A stretch of 64,000 bases of DNA. It comes from a virus. Under the pieces are notes generated by a model. The model did no database searches and was not told the DNA's origin. It saw only the letters and a list, made by a program, of their open reading frames with translations. Position 1 is the stretch's first letter. Each line of letters opens with the position of its first letter. The position numbers and the translations under genes are program-made. Positions 440 through 48,811 of the stretch are shown piece after piece. Where the stretch lies: positions 5,585-69,584 of the IMG/VR virus record IMGVR_UViG_3300029908_000019; one strand, 5' to 3'.

Positions 440-591
440 ATGGACAGGGATCAATGCAGAGGTTGTGGTCATTACCATTTCTTTTCCAAAGAGAAAACTC
501 TTGCATTGATATAGTTTGTGGATGTAATAGAAGAACGTTTATTCCGTTAGATAATTTAGAATATTTAGAGTGGTTTGTTAGGAAGGAGTAA
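440..591 (+). pseudogene. Frameshifted DNLEYLE-tag zinc-finger family member
   Basis: ATG440 gives MDRDQCRGCGHYH then a stop; another frame continues FQRENSCIDIVCGCNRRTFIPLDNLEYLEW; shift near the T/C run at about 478-487. Confidence 0.55.
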
Positions 592-594
592 ATT

Positions 595-1236
595 ATGAAG
601 AGAGTTTTGAACAGTGGTTCCATAAATCTTTTGGGAATTTTAGGCACAGAAGAGAATATTTTTGAGTATATTTCCTCTTCACCTGATCTTAATACTCTTA
701 CACAAGATGAGTCTTTAGACCTAGTTTATTCTAAATACAACGGATATCATTTCTCCCAGATTGTATTTAAGTTCCAAGTGAAAGCCCCTATCTTAATCCT
801 ACAATCCCTTCAAAAATCTCGTTTAGGCACCTTAGAGTCGTTTCCCATACAGGACACCTCAGAAGTGTATTTACCCCCTAGTTTCTATAGATACGGCTCA
901 ACAGAGGGCTTCCTAGCAGCATCCTCCAAAGAGTGTAATGATCTAAATACAAAGTATAGTAATTTTTACCGAAATGTGCTAAACTTCTATCAGAACCTAT
1001 TAAAATCTGGAGTGTGTCAAGAACAAGCTGATTTGGTTCTACCCCTTGGTTTGTTTGTTACATTCAACTGGGTAGTGAATGCCCAGGATGTTATTAAATT
1101 TATAGAAAAGAATTATAATGAATCACCAGAATTAAGTGGTTATTGTTCAACATTCGTGCTATACTTAGAAGACACAATGCCTATTATTTCTGATTGGTTG
1201 AAGAGAACAAAATGGCAAAATTACAAGCTAATTTAA
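595..1236 (+). CDS. ThyX-like (FAD-dependent thymidylate synthase fold) protein with degenerate active site
   Basis: ThyX-like segments FKFQVKAPI and YQNLLKSGVCQEQADLVLPLG..VTF.W.VNA, but the RHRx7S signature is replaced by QKSR. Confidence 0.65.
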   Translation: MKRVLNSGSINLLGILGTEENIFEYISSSPDLNTLTQDESLDLVYSKYNGYHFSQIVFKFQVKAPILILQSLQKSRLGTLESFPIQDTSEVYLPPSFYRYGSTEGFLAASSKECNDLNTKYSNFYRNVLNFYQNLLKSGVCQEQADLVLPLGLFVTFNWVVNAQDVIKFIEKNYNESPELSGYCSTFVLYLEDTMPIISDWLKRTKWQNYKLI

Positions 1237-1387
1237 TTTGTACGTTGGTCATTTATATAAAGACCACGGTATTTTTAAAGCTGATTCCTATGGAGATTCA
1301 TTGAAAAAAGCTTGCATCTGTAATGAATTCAAATTAGACAACATCAAATATCTAGAAGAGTGTTACGAGGATTCTCAACGTGCTTAG
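1212..1387 (+). pseudogene. Frameshifted DNLEYLE-tag zinc-finger family member
   Basis: MAKLQANLICT, then tt ggt cat (likely tgt ggt cat lacking 1 nt), continuing GHLYKDHG...CICNEFKLDNIKYLEE in another frame. Confidence 0.55.
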
Positions 1388-1679
1388 ACTTATTGGAATC
1401 ATTTGTGCAACGATAGCTATAACCTTTGATTTCCTTAGCTATTATAAACAAATCCATAAAACTCTTAAAGCTAAACACTCTAATCAGGTATCCTCTTCGT
1501 CCTATTTATTTAAGATAGCGAAGATATTATTTAATTTGATTAACTTAGCAATTTTCAGTAACTTTGTAGGCTGCTTTATGGAAGGAATGGCATTGATTAT
1601 TTGTATTATTGCTCTTATGATCATTTGCCATTTCAAGCCTCGTGGCTGGCACCTAATTGATTTTAAAATGGGAAAATAA
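1380..1679 (+). CDS. PQ-loop/SemiSWEET-like small membrane protein
   Basis: Three hydrophobic helices; YYKQIHKTLKAKHSNQVS resembles the PQ-loop pattern (PQI.K..K.K...VS). Confidence 0.55.
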   Translation: MLRLIGIICATIAITFDFLSYYKQIHKTLKAKHSNQVSSSSYLFKIAKILFNLINLAIFSNFVGCFMEGMALIICIIALMIICHFKPRGWHLIDFKMGK

Positions 1680-1680
1680 G

Positions 1681-1869
1681 ATGATTTGTAGATGTGGCTA
1701 TCACTTGCAAGAACACTGTGCAGGAACGATAGATCCAAAGATTTATTATAAAGATTTCGACTGGAGTTATGTTTCAGATGGCACACAGTGGGATGAGAAT
1801 TGCAAGTGTCTTAAGTTTAGGCCAGACAATATTAGATTTTTAGAGATGAAAGCTAATGAGCTTCAATAA
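1681..1869 (+). CDS. Small Cys/His protein, DNLEYLE-tag family
   Basis: CRCGYH..EHC...CKCLKFRPDNIRFLE. Confidence 0.75.
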   Translation: MICRCGYHLQEHCAGTIDPKIYYKDFDWSYVSDGTQWDENCKCLKFRPDNIRFLEMKANELQ

Positions 1870-2092
1870 TATAATTCCATGGGATACTTATAAATCACAA
1901 ACTCCTTGTAAAGTGTGTGGGCATAAGTGGTCGCACCATAGAGATGAGGTAGGCTGTTTAGGAGTATTTAAGAAAGAGGAAGATCCAAAATCATTTTGGC
2001 TTGGCACCTGCAAAAGCACTTGTAAGAAGTACTGTGAAACTAATTTAGAATACCTTGAGTATAAATATGAGCAAGAACAGAATAAAAAATAA
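1856..2092 (+). CDS. Small Cys/His protein, DNLEYLE-tag family
   Basis: CKVCGHKWSHH...CKSTCKKYCETNLEYLEYKYE. Confidence 0.8.
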   Translation: MSFNNIIPWDTYKSQTPCKVCGHKWSHHRDEVGCLGVFKKEEDPKSFWLGTCKSTCKKYCETNLEYLEYKYEQEQNKK

Positions 2093-2288
2093 AAGTTTAA
2101 TTTGTCAATGTGGGCATAGTGAAGACAGCCATGCAGATTTAATATCCTATAAGACTGAGTATTGTAGTGAGTGTTGGAACAAGAGATGGTGGAAAAAGTA
2201 TAAAAATTTAGATTTTGATGATTTACCTTTTGAATTATGTACTAATTTTAAAGAAGATAGCATTAAGTTTCTTGAGAGTTTAATATAA
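2055..2288 (+). CDS. Small Cys/His protein, DNLEYLE-tag family
   Basis: CQCGHSEDSH...CSEC...CTNFKEDSIKFLESLI. Confidence 0.75.
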   Translation: MSINMSKNRIKNKSLICQCGHSEDSHADLISYKTEYCSECWNKRWWKKYKNLDFDDLPFELCTNFKEDSIKFLESLI

Positions 2289-46763: not shown

Positions 46764-46785
46764 AAAAGAAAAGCGAGGTTAAGAG

Positions 46786-47142
46786 ATGAGTTTTATGGAT
46801 CAAGTCTTTGGGTATAATAGTAGCATAACAAGTTCTAATTCAACTAGTACAAGTACTGTTTGGACTAGTTATCCAAATAATACTACTCATACTGGTATTG
46901 TATCTCCTGGGATATATACAGCTGGTACTGGTGGCTTAGGCAATAATATTACATATAATCCCGTAATTGATATTAAACGATGCAGGACTTGTAATCATGC
47001 TCATCTAGAGGAACAAACAGGTTGTATTGATCAATACGGTTGGAATACAGTATTTGTAGATCATTGCCCTTGTAAAGAATATCTGCCGAAAGACAATTTA
47101 GAATATTTAGAATACCTTGCCAAGAAAGAAGAAACACATTAA
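46786..47142 (+). CDS. DNLEYLE-tag family gene with Ser/Thr-rich N-terminal extension
   Basis: CRTCNHAH...CPCKEYLPKDNLEYLEYL. Confidence 0.75.
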   Translation: MSFMDQVFGYNSSITSSNSTSTSTVWTSYPNNTTHTGIVSPGIYTAGTGGLGNNITYNPVIDIKRCRTCNHAHLEEQTGCIDQYGWNTVFVDHCPCKEYLPKDNLEYLEYLAKKEETH

Positions 47143-47165
47143 GTCATTCTTAAAAGGATCTCCAT

Positions 47166-47816
47166 ATGAAAAAAACTCTTATTACCCTCTTAGCTTTGTT
47201 TATTGTGTTACCTGCCTGTGCAACGGATATTTCAAAAAAGATGGAAGACAGCACCGTTTTACTTCATATGAAAATTCATAGCACAGCAAAGGATAAGACA
47301 GGGTGGGGATCGTGTAGTGGAGTTTATATTAAAGATAATATTATCCTATCTGCAGCGCATTGTGTGTCATTTCCACCAGATGAGGGAATTACTTTAAAAG
47401 AAATTTGGGTGAAAAAGGGAGATGTATCAGAAAATGCAGTTATTGTTCGTGTTGATCCAGCTGCTGACTTGCTACTTCTTTATACACCACTAAAAGGCAC
47501 ACCAGTTAAATTGGCAAAAAGAGTAGTACGTGGAGAGGATTGTTGGGTTATTGGAAATCCCTTGGGGCTTGTTGATATTTTGACAAAAGGTATTGTAAGT
47601 AAACTTAATTTAAAACCAAAAGGTGAGAAAGCTACTTTTATCGTAGTAGACGCAACAGCACTTCCCGGCAACTCAGGAGGGGCGATTGTAGATCGTAAGG
47701 GCCACCTTATTGGAATTCTTACCAGAAGTACTTCTTTCTTTGGTGTTTTTGGGGCTTCTGGATTGGGAATTGGAGTTGACTTACATACAATTAGAGAGTT
47801 TTTAAAAGGTATTTAA
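47166..47816 (+). CDS. Secreted trypsin-like (S1) serine protease
   Basis: Signal peptide; SAAHC, DLLLL and PGNSGG catalytic triad motifs. Confidence 0.9.
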   Translation: MKKTLITLLALFIVLPACATDISKKMEDSTVLLHMKIHSTAKDKTGWGSCSGVYIKDNIILSAAHCVSFPPDEGITLKEIWVKKGDVSENAVIVRVDPAADLLLLYTPLKGTPVKLAKRVVRGEDCWVIGNPLGLVDILTKGIVSKLNLKPKGEKATFIVVDATALPGNSGGAIVDRKGHLIGILTRSTSFFGVFGASGLGIGVDLHTIREFLKGI

Positions 47817-48071
47817 AAGGAATTATAATATGCCATTACACAAAAAAGGTTCACCTTCAAAAATTTCTATTATTAAGAATGCAGGTTTCTCCATGAGCGT
47901 TGATGCTTTGGCTCAAAGTTTTCTAAAAGATTGGCCTAGTAAAAAGCTTTCTATAGATCAGATCCATGCCAGCTTAAAGAGTATTGGAATTATAAACTAC
48001 TCCTCAGAAGACTTATCCACTTTGATTAGTAGACTTGAGTCCATTGGGTTTTCCGTTACTTATTAAGTTAA

Positions 48072-48136
48072 GTAGATAACAATACTTACCTACAACAAAA
48101 GTATAATAAAATCTAATAGTATTAGGAGTACTGCGC
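48072..48136 (+). promoter_or_regulatory. Conserved intergenic element, divergent copy 3
   Basis: GTAGATAACAAT...AAAAGTATAATAAAA..AATAGTATTAGGAGT shared with copies 1 and 2. Confidence 0.55.
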
Positions 48137-48435
48137 TATATTGATTTCTAGATATAAATTTTGATAATTAAATAAGAAGAGAGAGGACTTATTATGCAAG
48201 ACAATAATGAAAAGAGAAGCAAAGAAATTGTGTTTGAAACTGAAGAGGGTCTTAATGTACCTGTTATGTTTGAAGCACTATTTGTTAAGTATATGGGCCG
48301 TGTCCTAGATTTGATTCGCATTAGCGATATCTCTGACCGCAATTTAACACAGCTTTCTCGTACTATTAAAGATGATTGTTATCATCAAATTGATTTGGCA
48401 AAAGCCATTTTAAAGAAACACGATATCACAGAATA

Positions 48436-48811
48436 ATGGCAGAATATAATACACTTTGTCTTCGCTGTTCTCATTACGATCATTTCCAAAAATTATCTTC
48501 AAGCCTCCATCTTTTCGACAAAATGTGCTGGACCGGAAAGGCGTGGGATACTAATTGTAAGTGCCCAAAACATATTGAAAAAAATTTGGAATACTTGGAA
48601 TACTTATATGAGCAGGAAACAAGGAAGAATTTTTAATTTTGAACGATGCAGAACTTGCAATCACTATTTCATAAGTCATACAAGTAAATGTGTTTATTGT
48701 TTTGATAATGCAGAATTAAAACTTTGTGGATGTGAAGAATTTTCTCCGTCGGATAATATAGATTTTTTGGAATATGAATATGGAAAATTGGATAAAAAAT
48801 TTAGCGATTAA
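48436..48811 (+). CDS. Two DNLEYLE-tag family genes
   Basis: C-termini EKNLEYLEYLYE and SDNIDFLEYEY. Confidence 0.75.

What the first reader, a model, noticed from the sequence alone, without database searches (positions are those of the whole stretch)
440..48811. About 28 hypervariable small genes sharing a C-terminal DNLEYLE tag: a possible tagged-effector library
Seen: by manual count about 28 ORFs, mostly 39-100 aa, end in [DSNTK]-N-[LI]-[EKQ]-[YFW]-L-E followed by a short charged tail. Most have an otherwise unalignable N-terminal C-x(1-2)-C-x-H-x(1-4)-H...C...C-x-C-x2-[FY] zinc-binding scaffold. About 22 lie in tandem, translationally coupled runs at 0.4-10.4 kb; the rest sit singly or in pairs among other genes (23.8-24.2, 42.9, 46.8, 48.4-48.8 kb). 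The tag codons vary synonymously (e.g. GAT AAT TTA GAA TAT TTA vs GAT AAT CTA GAG TAT TTA), which points to selection on the peptide. I know of no named family with this architecture. Inference: a constant amphipathic docking helix (binding a shared hub, oligomerising, or acting as a degron or packaging signal) joined to diversified binding heads, e.g. a library of anti-defence or adaptor proteins.
Basis: partly seen in the sequence, partly recalled or inferred. Interest (0 to 1): 0.85.

Follow-up and report, generated by a model that had tools for sequence, protein, structure and literature searches.

The report
Portable C-terminal tag on phage proteins
In a group of uncultivated large phages, about one gene in seven ends in the same short helix, attached mostly to fast-evolving small metal-binding heads, which suggests an undescribed addressing tag that brings many proteins to one partner.

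Summary
28 + strand ORFs in the window, and 34 in the 69.6-kb contig, end in [DNST]-N-[LI]-x-[YFW]-L-E plus a 3-14 aa tail. Chance gives about 0.4. Codon use in the tag matches genome background, so the peptide is conserved, not the DNA.

Pfam, PHROGs, NCBIfam, PDB, BFVD and GenBank phages hold no such family. A profile finds 1081 metagenomic cluster representatives.

The tag is portable:
- It sits on about 22 Cys/His heads and on unrelated heads.
- Profile comparisons align only the last 16-22 columns.
- One head family is common in other phages without it (0 of 36).

A complete 192-kb relative carries it on 50 of 349 ORFs. A sister clade (capsid 79% identical) has shifted the tag on all head types at once (L to I/V, new fixed tail). 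Two complete genomes further out have none.

Best reading: a docking helix that takes diversified heads to one shared partner. The partner is unknown. The phage Clp protease genes are the leading candidate by synteny and co-occurrence; capsid targeting is the main rival. The self-association fold test gave no answer.

Closest analogue: the zinc-ribbon expansion of Bacillus phage G, with no detectable homology.

The parts
454..591 (+). Tagged ORF (DNLEYLE) with a degenerate Cys head; an alternative TTG start lies at 400
1238..1387 (+). Tagged ORF (DNIKYLE), 49 aa; the head lacks the N-terminal CxC-H motif
1657..1869 (+). Tagged Cys/His-head ORF (DNIRFLE)
1856..2092 (+). Tagged Cys/His-head ORF (TNLEYLE)
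2055..2288 (+). Tagged Cys/His-head ORF (DSIKFLE)
2288..2704 (+). Tagged ORF without a Cys head, family (a) (DNIEYLE). 138 codons with an in-frame TAG at 2375-2377. Orthologues of 133-140 aa in relatives are uninterrupted.
2686..2883 (+). Tagged Cys/His-head ORF (DNLEYLE)
2870..3049 (+). Tagged Cys/His-head ORF (KNIEYLE)
3034..3165 (+). Tagged short Cys/His-head ORF (DSLQYLE)
3616..4086 (+). Tagged family (c), 156 aa: a head domain widespread in phages, then a C-terminal zinc ribbon, then the tag (DNLELLELLEYL). In the AlphaFold2 model the tag is helix 139-155.
5420..5584 (+). Tagged minimal Cys/His-head ORF (DNLDYLE), 54 aa
6312..6500 (+). Tagged Cys/His-head ORF (DNLEYLE)
7260..7424 (+). Tagged ORF (NNLEYLE) with a degenerate head
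7405..7617 (+). Tagged Cys/His-head ORF (DNLLYLE)
7595..7804 (+). Tagged Cys/His-head ORF (SNLEYLE), stored as P0001. In the AlphaFold2 model the tag is helix 54-68.
7785..7991 (+). Tagged Cys-rich ORF (DNIEYLE)
8386..8556 (+). Tagged Cys/His-head ORF (NNIEYLE). It overlaps the start of the ClpP-like gene by 20 nt.
8537..9166 (+). Divergent ClpP-like serine protease gene embedded in the tagged run. It is a candidate partner, not a family member.
9166..9450 (+). Tagged ORF without a Cys head, family (b) (PKLEYLE), 94 aa, directly downstream of the ClpP-like gene. Relatives G001 and G008 have the same arrangement.
9447..9740 (+). Tagged Cys/His-head ORF (DNIQYLE), 97 aa
9733..9909 (+). Tagged Cys/His-head ORF (DNLKWLE)
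9902..10087 (+). Tagged Cys/His-head ORF (NNIEYLE)
10146..10370 (+). Tagged Cys/His-head ORF (DNLLFLE)
23844..24032 (+). Tagged Cys/His-head ORF (SNLEYLE), upstream of the polyvalent-protein gene
24007..24243 (+). Tagged Cys/His-head ORF (DNIKFLE)
42921..43100 (+). Tagged Cys/His-head ORF (DNLKFLE), just after the terminase genes
46786..47142 (+). Tagged family (d), 118 aa: a Ser/Thr/Asn-rich N-extension, then a Cys/His head, then the tag (DNLEYLE). It lies between the portal/HNH genes and the trypsin-like lipoprotein gene, and is conserved in most related loci.
48436..48636 (+). Tagged Cys/His-head ORF (KNLEYLE), in the head module
48575..48811 (+). Tagged Cys/His-head ORF (DNIDFLE), in the head module

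Best explanation
CLAIM. These are real genes of a clade-specific system in uncultivated phages of about 180-190 kb. A portable C-terminal amphipathic helix of about 13-16 residues acts as a docking tag for one common partner. Its consensus is [FY]-x-P-x-D-N-[LI]-x-[YF]-L-E-[WY]-[KL]-x-[ED]-K-K.

WHAT CARRIES THE TAG. Most carriers are a fast-diverging Cys/His metal-binding mini-domain. Only the metal ligands are kept; the loops vary in length and sequence, as in a library of binding heads. Several unrelated domains carry the same tag.

SHOWN.
- The conservation is at the peptide level.
- The tag is modular.
- Carriers reach about 14% of ORFs in a complete relative.
- The tag changes in concert across head types between sister clades.
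- Genomes further out lack it.

INFERRED. The invariant face (cap residue, N, L, Y, L, E, mixing polar and hydrophobic residues) reads a groove on one partner that each phage lineage keeps matched to its tags.

PARTNER. It is not identified. My ranking:
1. The Clp proteolytic machinery (phage ClpP and ClpP-like protein with a host unfoldase), with the tag as a degron or an adaptor tether: about 0.3.
2. Prohead or capsid targeting: about 0.15-0.2.
3. A host hub: about 0.2.
4. Self-assembly: about 0.1.
For: REALITY AND SPREAD.
- 1081 cluster representatives match the profile at E<=0.001. 150 of the 154 proteins stored at that point carry the motif, mostly 6-13 residues from the end.
- Profile matches per related record: 44, 40, 17, 52 and 13 in five records.
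- By my ORF calls, 33 of 111 ORFs in the contig and 50 of 349 in the complete relative G001 are tagged.

PEPTIDE LEVEL. Synonymous codon use equals background.

MODULARITY.
- The tag profile is nearly identical on 161 Cys-rich heads and 56 other heads.
- hhalign of the Cys/His family against family (a) aligns 16 columns (E=1.7e-5). Against family (b) it aligns 22 columns (E=8.6e-7). Both alignments cover the tag only.
- The head of family (c) has 389 relatives in IMG/VR. 0 of 36 distant ones examined end in a tag-like sequence. 77 of 80 loci have 0 or 1 tagged ORF nearby.
- The AlphaFold2 model of (c) (pLDDT 92) puts the tag in a terminal helix, 139-155, after the zinc ribbon.

CONCERTED CHANGE.
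- In G000 and G001 (n=72), position +4 is L in 94% and tails are 3-20 aa.
- In G008 and G009 (n=40), position +4 is I or V in 95%, position +8 is A in 80%, and the tail is 9 aa in 25 of 40, ending [KR]-x-L-[VI].
- The shift holds for Cys-rich heads (19 of 20 I/V) and Cys-poor heads (13 of 13 I/V) alike.

PHYLETIC LIMITS. Complete genomes G006 and G007 (capsid 76% and 67% identical) have no profile match, no motif and no other recurrent C-terminal motif.

CLP LEAD.
- The ClpP-like gene overlaps tagged genes on both sides in the window. A tagged ORF follows it directly in G001 and in G008.
- ClpP and the ClpP-like gene are 2 of only 23 untagged G001 ORFs (of 299) that are present in both tag-bearing sister genomes and absent from both tag-less ones. 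ClpP is 86-87% identical there.
Against: - No partner was found by any test here.
- I could not inspect model coordinates. In the Cys/His model the residue block holding the start of the helix has the highest confidence (pLDDT 91), which could mean it packs on its own head.
- The weak resemblance to the ferredoxin-thioredoxin reductase catalytic chain runs through the P-D-N that opens the tag. The first turn may therefore descend from an integral part of a fold.
- The concerted shift could come from separate expansions from different founders, and not from co-evolution with a partner.
- In family (c) the tag has drifted to D-[SGN]-L-E-I-V-E in G001 and G004, which keep canonical tags elsewhere. 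It is not indispensable on every head.
- In phage G the analogous conserved end is part of one ~100-aa domain, not a portable module.
- Against the Clp lead: the phages have no ClpX-type unfoldase (0 of 5 records). In the window's clade the tails vary in length, unlike classical C-terminal degrons. The 23-gene co-occurrence set rests on only four genomes.
Confidence: 0.6

Rival explanations
1. Capsid targeting. The tag binds the prohead (scaffold, portal or capsid interior), so tagged proteins are packaged and injected with the DNA. They would form a pre-made effector library, like the T4 internal proteins with their capsid targeting sequence or the cargo-loading peptides of encapsulins.
For: - Three tagged genes (46786-47142, 48436-48636, 48575-48811) lie in the head module, between portal and protease/scaffold/capsid genes. 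Family (d) is conserved there in most related loci.
- A tagged pair lies directly upstream of a polyvalent protein with an ADP-ribosyltransferase domain. [quoted passage not shown]
- The capsid protein is by far the most conserved protein between the window's contig and G001 (93% against about 55%).
- Particle proteomics of the distant relative phage G detected 104 of 668 ORFs, many of them non-structural (PMC12484599, passages read).
Against: - Most tagged genes sit among nucleotide-metabolism and other non-structural genes.
- One tagged protein in a relative has an N-terminal membrane helix (locus L018, 163 aa).
- Capsid, portal and scaffold genes are shared with the tag-less genomes, so they do not co-occur with the tag.
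- There are no virion data for this clade.
Confidence: 0.17
2. Self-association. The tag is an oligomerisation helix that links tagged proteins to each other in homo- or hetero-oligomers.
For: The tag is an amphipathic helix with hydrophobic positions at +1, +4 and +8. Fused two-unit proteins exist in metagenomes (P0009, P0026 and P0093).
Against: - The conserved stretch spans only about two heptads.
- The invariant polar N and E look more like specific recognition than a coiled-coil seam (inference).
- Promiscuous pairing among about 50 different proteins has no obvious use (inference).
Confidence: 0.1
3. No separate function. The conserved end is simply the best-kept structural element of one expanded domain family, conserved by descent and needed for folding, as appears to be the case for the expanded zinc-ribbon family of phage G.
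For: - In phage G the conserved end YWKENDRYL belongs to a ~100-aa domain shared by two PHROG families.
- The helix start has the highest model confidence.
- The weak match to the ferredoxin-thioredoxin reductase catalytic chain includes P-D-N.
Against: - The tag sits on heads with no detectable similarity to each other beyond the tag.
- It sits on a domain that is common without it.
- It shifts in concert on all of these heads.
Confidence: 0.1
4. A DNA- or RNA-level element (recombination site, promoter, ribosome-binding region) that happens to be translated.
For: - Start codons of downstream genes fall inside the tails.
- There is a slight excess of TTG and GAG at the L-E columns: 10 against 5.8 expected, and 15 against 10.4.
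Against: - Synonymous codon entropy equals background.
- Solitary members that are not followed by a coupled gene keep the tag.
- The motif is found in one reading frame and on one strand only.
Confidence: 0.02

Closest known systems
Lineage-specific expansion of zinc-ribbon proteins in Bacillus phage G (about 35 copies; Iyer et al. 2021, PMC7824862, passages read). These are phrog_13559 and phrog_4661.
   Same: - Phage G has the closest cultivated capsid protein (29.5% identity).
- It too has tens of small metal-binding paralogues in tandem runs.
- Its most conserved stretch is a C-terminal helix with a similar core, [ED]-N-x-x-Y-L (YWKENDRYL). 18 forward matches against 1 in the control.
   Different: - No detectable homology: the profile finds nothing in phage G at E<=1, and hhalign gives probability 0.1%.
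- The ligand pattern differs: CPIC...C...C against CxCxH...H...C...CxC.
- In phage G the conserved end is part of one ~100-aa domain, not a module on unrelated heads.
- The function of the phage G family is also unknown. The authors suggest transcription factors or DNA-binding proteins.
T4 capsid targeting sequence on the variable internal proteins (recalled; only the titles and abstracts in the search listing were seen)
   Same: A short constant peptide joined to diverse small phage proteins. The internal-protein locus is variable between related phages.
   Different: The T4 signal is N-terminal and is cut off by the prohead protease. A genome has only a few carriers. Virion location is not shown here.
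Encapsulin cargo-loading peptides (recalled, no call)
   Same: A short C-terminal peptide directs unrelated cargo proteins to one partner with an HK97-type fold.
   Different: The consensus differs. Binding to this phage's capsid protein was not tested.
C-terminal recognition peptides of AAA+ proteases and their adaptors: the ssrA tag, the MuA end, the ClpX-binding tail of SspB (recalled, no call)
   Same: Short C-terminal peptides on unrelated proteins are read by one proteolytic machine. The sister clade's fixed 9-aa tail, which is basic and ends in L-[VI], resembles such ends.
   Different: In the window's clade the conserved part is an internal helix followed by a tail of variable length. 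Binding was not tested, and the phages have no ClpX-type unfoldase.
Ferredoxin-thioredoxin reductase catalytic chain (PF02943)
   Same: It is the top PDB sequence hit for three profiles. The motifs CxC-[RG]-H ... C ... C-x-C-x2-[FY]-x2-P-D-N are colinear.
   Different: E-values are 0.11-0.55, which is not significant. The Pfam model finds nothing in four of these phage records at E<=10. One of the six cysteines is not conserved in the family consensus.

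Membership tests
Any Pfam, PHROGs or NCBIfam family | Significant match to a curated profile | tested here: not met
   - Pfam on 28 members: 4 unrelated families, one member each, best E=0.00083.
- PHROGs on 28: 1 member, E=0.002. 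On further members: none, or E=0.017.
- NCBIfam on 10: none.
Phage G zinc-ribbon expansion (phrog_13559 / phrog_4661) | Sequence homology over the ~100-aa domain | tested here: not met
   The profile A4 finds 0 matches in phage G at E<=1. hhalign probability is 0.12%. Window members do not hit these PHROGs.
Phage G zinc-ribbon expansion (phrog_13559 / phrog_4661) | Tandem multi-copy small metal-binding proteins with a conserved C-terminal helix | tested here: met
   Architecture compared by eye. This is a resemblance in organisation only.
Ferredoxin-thioredoxin reductase catalytic chain (PF02943) | Match to the family profile, and the CPC...CPC...CHC cysteines | tested here: inconclusive
   Searching from our profiles gives E=0.11, 0.55 and 0.54. 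Searching with the Pfam model finds 0 of 4 records at E<=10. The middle cysteine pair is a single conserved Cys in the consensus.
T4-type capsid targeting sequence / internal proteins | N-terminal signal removed by the prohead protease; protein present in the virion | tested here: not met
   The conserved peptide is C-terminal. Virion presence cannot be tested with these tools.
Encapsulin-type cargo-loading peptide | C-terminal peptide that binds the inner face of an HK97-fold shell | not tested
   The single complex job went to the self-association test. No capsid-tag fold was run.
C-terminal degron or adaptor tail of Clp proteases | Recognition depends on a defined free C-terminal end | tested here: inconclusive
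   In the window's clade the tails are 3-20 aa with no fixed end. In the sister clade the tail is 9 aa in 25 of 40 and ends L-[VI]. Binding cannot be tested here.
Zinc finger (metal-binding mini-domain in general) | Four or more conserved Cys/His ligands in a short domain | tested here: met
   C7 and C9 are invariant. H11, H16, C32 and C46 are at 90% or more in 147 sequences. The identity of the metal is not testable here.

The most novel reading that the evidence does not exclude
A phage-encoded addressing system that spans the proteome. One portable helix recruits a library of about 50 rapidly diversifying metal-scaffold binders, plus other domains, to the phage's own Clp protease working with a host unfoldase. 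Each head would deliver a different host protein, for example a defence sensor, for destruction. This would be a bacterial-virus counterpart of the F-box, PRANC and BC-box adaptor families of eukaryotic viruses. The tag and its receptor would co-evolve, as the concerted shift between sister clades suggests.
Probability: 0.15. Interest if true: 0.92.

Novelty: new variant of a known kind. Interest (0 to 1): 0.74.

Why it matters
If the tag is an address label, one short peptide organises about a seventh of the genes of a widespread group of large environmental phages. Finding its receptor would assign a role to more than a thousand orphan protein clusters at once.

It would also add a case to phage biology: a portable targeting signal joined to a fast-evolving binder library. 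That is the logic expected of an arms race with host defences.

There is a practical side. A 13-16 residue tag with lineage-specific variants and a matching receptor would be a ready-made orthogonal targeting pair.

The link to phage G suggests that constant C-terminal helices on expanded small metal-binding proteins may be a general, overlooked feature of this branch of large phages.

Tried and rejected
SELF-ASSOCIATION FOLD. Two copies of P0001 with alignment A4 scored 0.00 and 0.01 against a mark of 0.42. The tool's verdict was 'no answer'. I do not count this for or against binding.

STRUCTURE SEARCHES.
- Cys/His model against PDB: 1 match at E<=10, none significant.
- Cys/His model against BFVD: best E=1.7.
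- Family (c) model against PDB: best E=0.16.

ESM ATLAS. Best score 0.88, no common Pfam family.

OTHER SEQUENCE SEARCHES.
- The word-index protein search found only 8 proteins among 42 candidates. The exhaustive profile search was needed.
- tblastn of P0033 against GenBank phages: no match at E<=1.
- 185,579 prokaryote genomes: no DNLEYLEW.

LITERATURE.
- Six motif strings in full text gave 19 papers, none on phages by title.
- Word searches for paralogous small cysteine-rich phage proteins, for phage ClpP and for capsid targeting showed no description of this family.
- My statement that it is not in print rests on these four searches and on the passages read.
- Supplementary tables were closed. 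Supplementary Table 1 of PMC12484599 may say whether the phage G paralogues are in the particle.

ANALYSES THAT LED NOWHERE.
- Search for an intergenic promoter motif: nothing enriched.
- dN/dS on close orthologues: not possible.
- Pfam on 10 of the 23 co-occurring ORFs gave only a transporter and a weak tape-measure hit.
- Head charge is near neutral (median 0 to +1), so I dropped a DNA-condensing role.
- The AAA+ protein of 467 aa is shared with a tag-less genome at 47% identity, so I dropped it as a specific partner.

Full report
1. THE OBSERVATION

The window is part of a 69,584-bp virus contig; the window covers bases 5585-69584. Almost all genes are on the + strand.

A six-frame scan for the motif gave 26 + strand matches, each 3-14 residues before a stop, and one - strand match in a 20-aa frame. 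22 lie at 0.4-10.4 kb and 6 lie further on. Six more lie in the 5.5 kb upstream of the window, making 34 in the contig. In one search I set aside five looser matches as false: 29868, 30730, 49577, 49940 and 62896.

Chance does not explain this. The strict motif within 22 residues of a stop occurs 24 times on the + strand and 0 times on the - strand. 100 dinucleotide shuffles gave a mean of 0.4 and a maximum of 3. Neighbouring genes in the runs overlap by 1-38 nt.

2. PEPTIDE OR DNA?

For the seven tag columns of the 34 copies, synonymous codon choice follows the codon usage of the contig's long ORFs. The invariant Leu uses TTA 17, TTG 10, CTA 5 and CTT 2. The invariant Glu uses GAA 19 and GAG 15. 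Summed entropy is 211.6 against 224.9 +/- 12.7 simulated, and 15% of simulations were as low or lower. The conservation is therefore on the peptide.

3. CONTEXT

The contig is a phage. It encodes:
- ThyX, peptide deformylase, a ClpP-like protease, an M50 peptidase, a DeoC-like aldolase, and a 1642-aa polyvalent protein with an ADP-ribosyltransferase domain;
- a large terminase interrupted by intein sequence, and a portal with a LAGLIDADG insert;
- a trypsin-like protein with a lipoprotein-type signal;
- a 1141-aa protein with a head-maturation-protease region, a major head protein, and two tRNAs.

No cultivated phage is close. The best capsid match is Bacillus phage G at 29.5% identity, and all 227 matching records are below 60%.

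4. A LARGE BUT UNNAMED FAMILY

Pfam, PHROGs and NCBIfam give no consistent hit. A profile of 22 window members searched against 1.84 billion cluster representatives found 1081 proteins at E<=0.001. Of the 154 proteins stored at that point, 150 carry the motif. Nearly all are 50-110 aa with the same CxC-x-H ... H ... C ... CxC head.

GenBank phages have no match to one typical member at E<=1. No prokaryote genome of 185,579 holds DNLEYLEW.

In IMG/VR the family lies in related phage contigs. Whole-record profile searches gave 44 matches in a complete 192,085-bp genome with terminal repeats (G001), 40 in a 180-kb record and 52 in a 120-kb fragment. By my own ORF calling, 33 of 111 ORFs in the window's contig and 50 of 349 in G001 are tagged, all on the + strand.

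5. THE TAG IS A PORTABLE MODULE

Across the loci I held, 161 tagged proteins with Cys-rich heads and 56 with other heads show nearly the same profile: [FY]-x-P-x-D-N-L-[EK]-Y-L-E-[WY]-[KL]-x-[ED]-K-K.

Several heads without the Cys/His motif are conserved gene families in their own right:
- (a) about 135-140 aa, window 2288-2704;
- (b) 94-99 aa, window 9166-9450;
- (c) about 156 aa, window 3616-4086;
- (d) a Ser/Thr/Asn-rich extension before a Cys/His head, window 46786-47142;
- others seen only in relatives.

Profile-profile comparison of the Cys/His family with (a) and with (b) aligns only the last 16 and 22 columns (E=1.7e-5 and 8.6e-7). Comparing (a) with (b) aligns 20 columns at low probability.

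The head of (c) is a common phage domain, with 389 relatives in IMG/VR. Of 36 distant ones that I read to their stop codons, none ends in a tag-like sequence. 77 of the 80 fetched loci have 0 or 1 tagged ORF within 10 kb.

The AlphaFold2 model of (c) is confident (pLDDT 92.2). It places the tag in a terminal helix, 139-155, after the zinc ribbon. The Cys/His member P0001 models less well (pLDDT 74.5), with the tag as helix 54-68. I could not read coordinates, so I cannot say whether that helix packs on its own head.

6. HEADS DIVERGE FAST

The best-hit identity of the contig's tagged proteins to G001 has a median of 38% (26 of 33 have a hit). Untagged ORFs have a median of 53% (47 of 78 have a hit). 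The capsid protein is 93% identical. Many best hits are to paralogues at other positions. Heads are near neutral in charge, which does not suggest bulk DNA binding.

7. PHYLETIC PATTERN AND CONCERTED CHANGE

Using the capsid protein as a ruler, I searched 15 further records with the profile.
- Records with capsids 94-96% identical have the family.
- Three records with capsids 79% identical have 6-13 profile matches.
- Two complete genomes with terminal repeats have none: G006 (193 kb, capsid 76%) and G007 (210 kb, capsid 67%).

A regex scan and a de novo search for any recurrent C-terminal motif also found nothing in G006 and G007. The top gapped 6-mer occurred in 9 and 7 ORFs there, against 47 in G001 and 30 in G008.

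In the 79% clade (G008 and G009, 20 tagged ORFs each) the tag differs in a coordinated way. Position +4 is I or V in 95%, against L in 94% in G000 and G001. Position +2 is S, T or D, not E or K. Position +8 is Ala in 80%. The tail is exactly 9 residues in 25 of 40 and ends [KR]-x-L-[VI]. The shift holds for Cys-rich heads (19 of 20) and Cys-poor heads (13 of 13).

A tag that changes together on unrelated heads within a lineage is what co-evolution with one common reader would produce. Separate expansions from different founders could also produce it, and I cannot exclude that.

8. WHAT THE PARTNER MIGHT BE

The invariant residues (cap D/N/S/T, then N, L, Y, L, E) fall on one face of a helix and mix polar and hydrophobic side chains. 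This looks like a recognition surface, not a coiled-coil seam (inference).

Evidence for the Clp lead:
- The ClpP-like gene (8537-9166) overlaps a tagged gene upstream by 20 nt and one downstream by 1 nt.
- A tagged ORF follows it directly in G001 and in G008.
- G001 also has a canonical ClpP.
- Of 299 untagged G001 ORFs, 23 are present in both tag-bearing sister genomes and absent from both tag-less ones. ClpP (86-87% identical) and the ClpP-like gene (50-55%) are among them.

Evidence against it:
- No ClpX-type unfoldase is encoded (0 of 5 records).
- Tail lengths vary in the window's clade.
- The four-genome comparison is weak.

For capsid targeting: three tagged genes lie in the head module and one of them is conserved next to the portal. 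A tagged pair precedes the polyvalent protein.

Against capsid targeting: most tagged genes lie among non-structural genes, one relative's tagged protein has a membrane helix, and the head genes are shared with the tag-less genomes.

9. COMPARISON WITH WHAT IS KNOWN

Iyer et al. (PMC7824862, passages read) note about 35 copies of a zinc ribbon in phage G and suggest transcription factors or DNA-binding proteins.

I read those genes. The ~110-aa zinc-ribbon proteins (gp32, 34, 35, 37, 46) and a run of about 25 proteins of ~200 aa (gp447-473) all end in YWKENDRYL-x-K-[IL]-L. There are 18 forward matches against 1 in the control. The core [ED]-N-x-x-Y-L recalls the tag here.

There is no detectable homology, however. 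In phage G the two groups share a whole ~100-aa domain, so there the conserved end is part of a domain and not a portable module.

Three profiles of the family give the ferredoxin-thioredoxin reductase catalytic chain as top PDB hit, at E=0.11-0.55, aligned from the first CxC through P-D-N. The Pfam model of that family finds nothing in four of these phage records. I keep this as a lead only. It leaves open whether the heads bind zinc or an iron-sulfur cluster.

10. VERDICT

The function is not shown.

I place it as a new variant of known kinds: lineage-specific expansions of small metal-binding phage proteins, and short C-terminal targeting peptides. What stands out is the tag's portability, the share of the gene set it marks, and its lineage-specific co-variation.

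Noticed in passing
window 2288-2704 (TAG at 2375-2377): The tagged gene of family (a) has an in-frame amber codon. Four orthologues have Y, F, N or H at that position. TAG ends other genes in the contig, so this is a nonsense mutation, a sequencing error or a suppressed stop, not a changed genetic code.
   Followed up: partly
window 39077-42450 and 43576-46290: The large terminase is interrupted by intein and Hint sequence spread over two ORFs. The portal carries a LAGLIDADG-type insert. HNH-AP2 and GIY-YIG endonuclease genes lie nearby (29399-30166, 46287-46763).
   Followed up: no
window 24484-29412: A 1642-aa polyvalent protein with weak ADP-ribosyltransferase and 2'-5' RNA ligase domains lies directly after a tagged gene pair.
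   Followed up: no
window 47166-47816: A trypsin-like peptidase with a lipoprotein-type signal peptide (LPAC) sits in the head module. It is 68% identical in the relative G001.
   Followed up: no
window 58051-58980: A protein with an ice-binding-like domain (Pfam E=2.8e-39) lies among the structural genes. It is 78% identical in G001.
   Followed up: no
window 57511-57675: Two tRNA genes, Ala (TGC) and Asn (GTT), lie between structural genes.
   Followed up: no
Bacillus phage G, NC_023719.1 353.9-369.9 kb (L040) and 26.1-33.1 kb (L039): A run of about 25 paralogous ~200-aa genes (gp447-473) and the ~110-aa zinc-ribbon genes all end in YWKENDRYL-x-K-[IL]-L. The passages I read of two phage G papers do not mention this shared end.
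   Followed up: partly
G001 37159-37821 (L029:17159-17821) and 165421-166824: The complete relative encodes a canonical ClpP besides the divergent ClpP-like gene, and a 467-aa classic-type AAA+ protein. It has no ClpX-type ATPase.
   Followed up: partly
window 10547-13006: An 819-aa acidic protein with two CxxC pairs and a long Gly/Ala/Thr/Ser-rich low-complexity stretch lies directly after the tagged run. It has no family match, and G001 has it in the same position.
   Followed up: no
proteins P0158-P0182 and alignment A9: In many relatives, family (c) ends in D-[SNG]-L-E-I-[VL]-E-[KD]-A, not the canonical tag. This includes genomes that keep canonical tags on other proteins. It may be a drifting copy of the tag.
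   Followed up: partly
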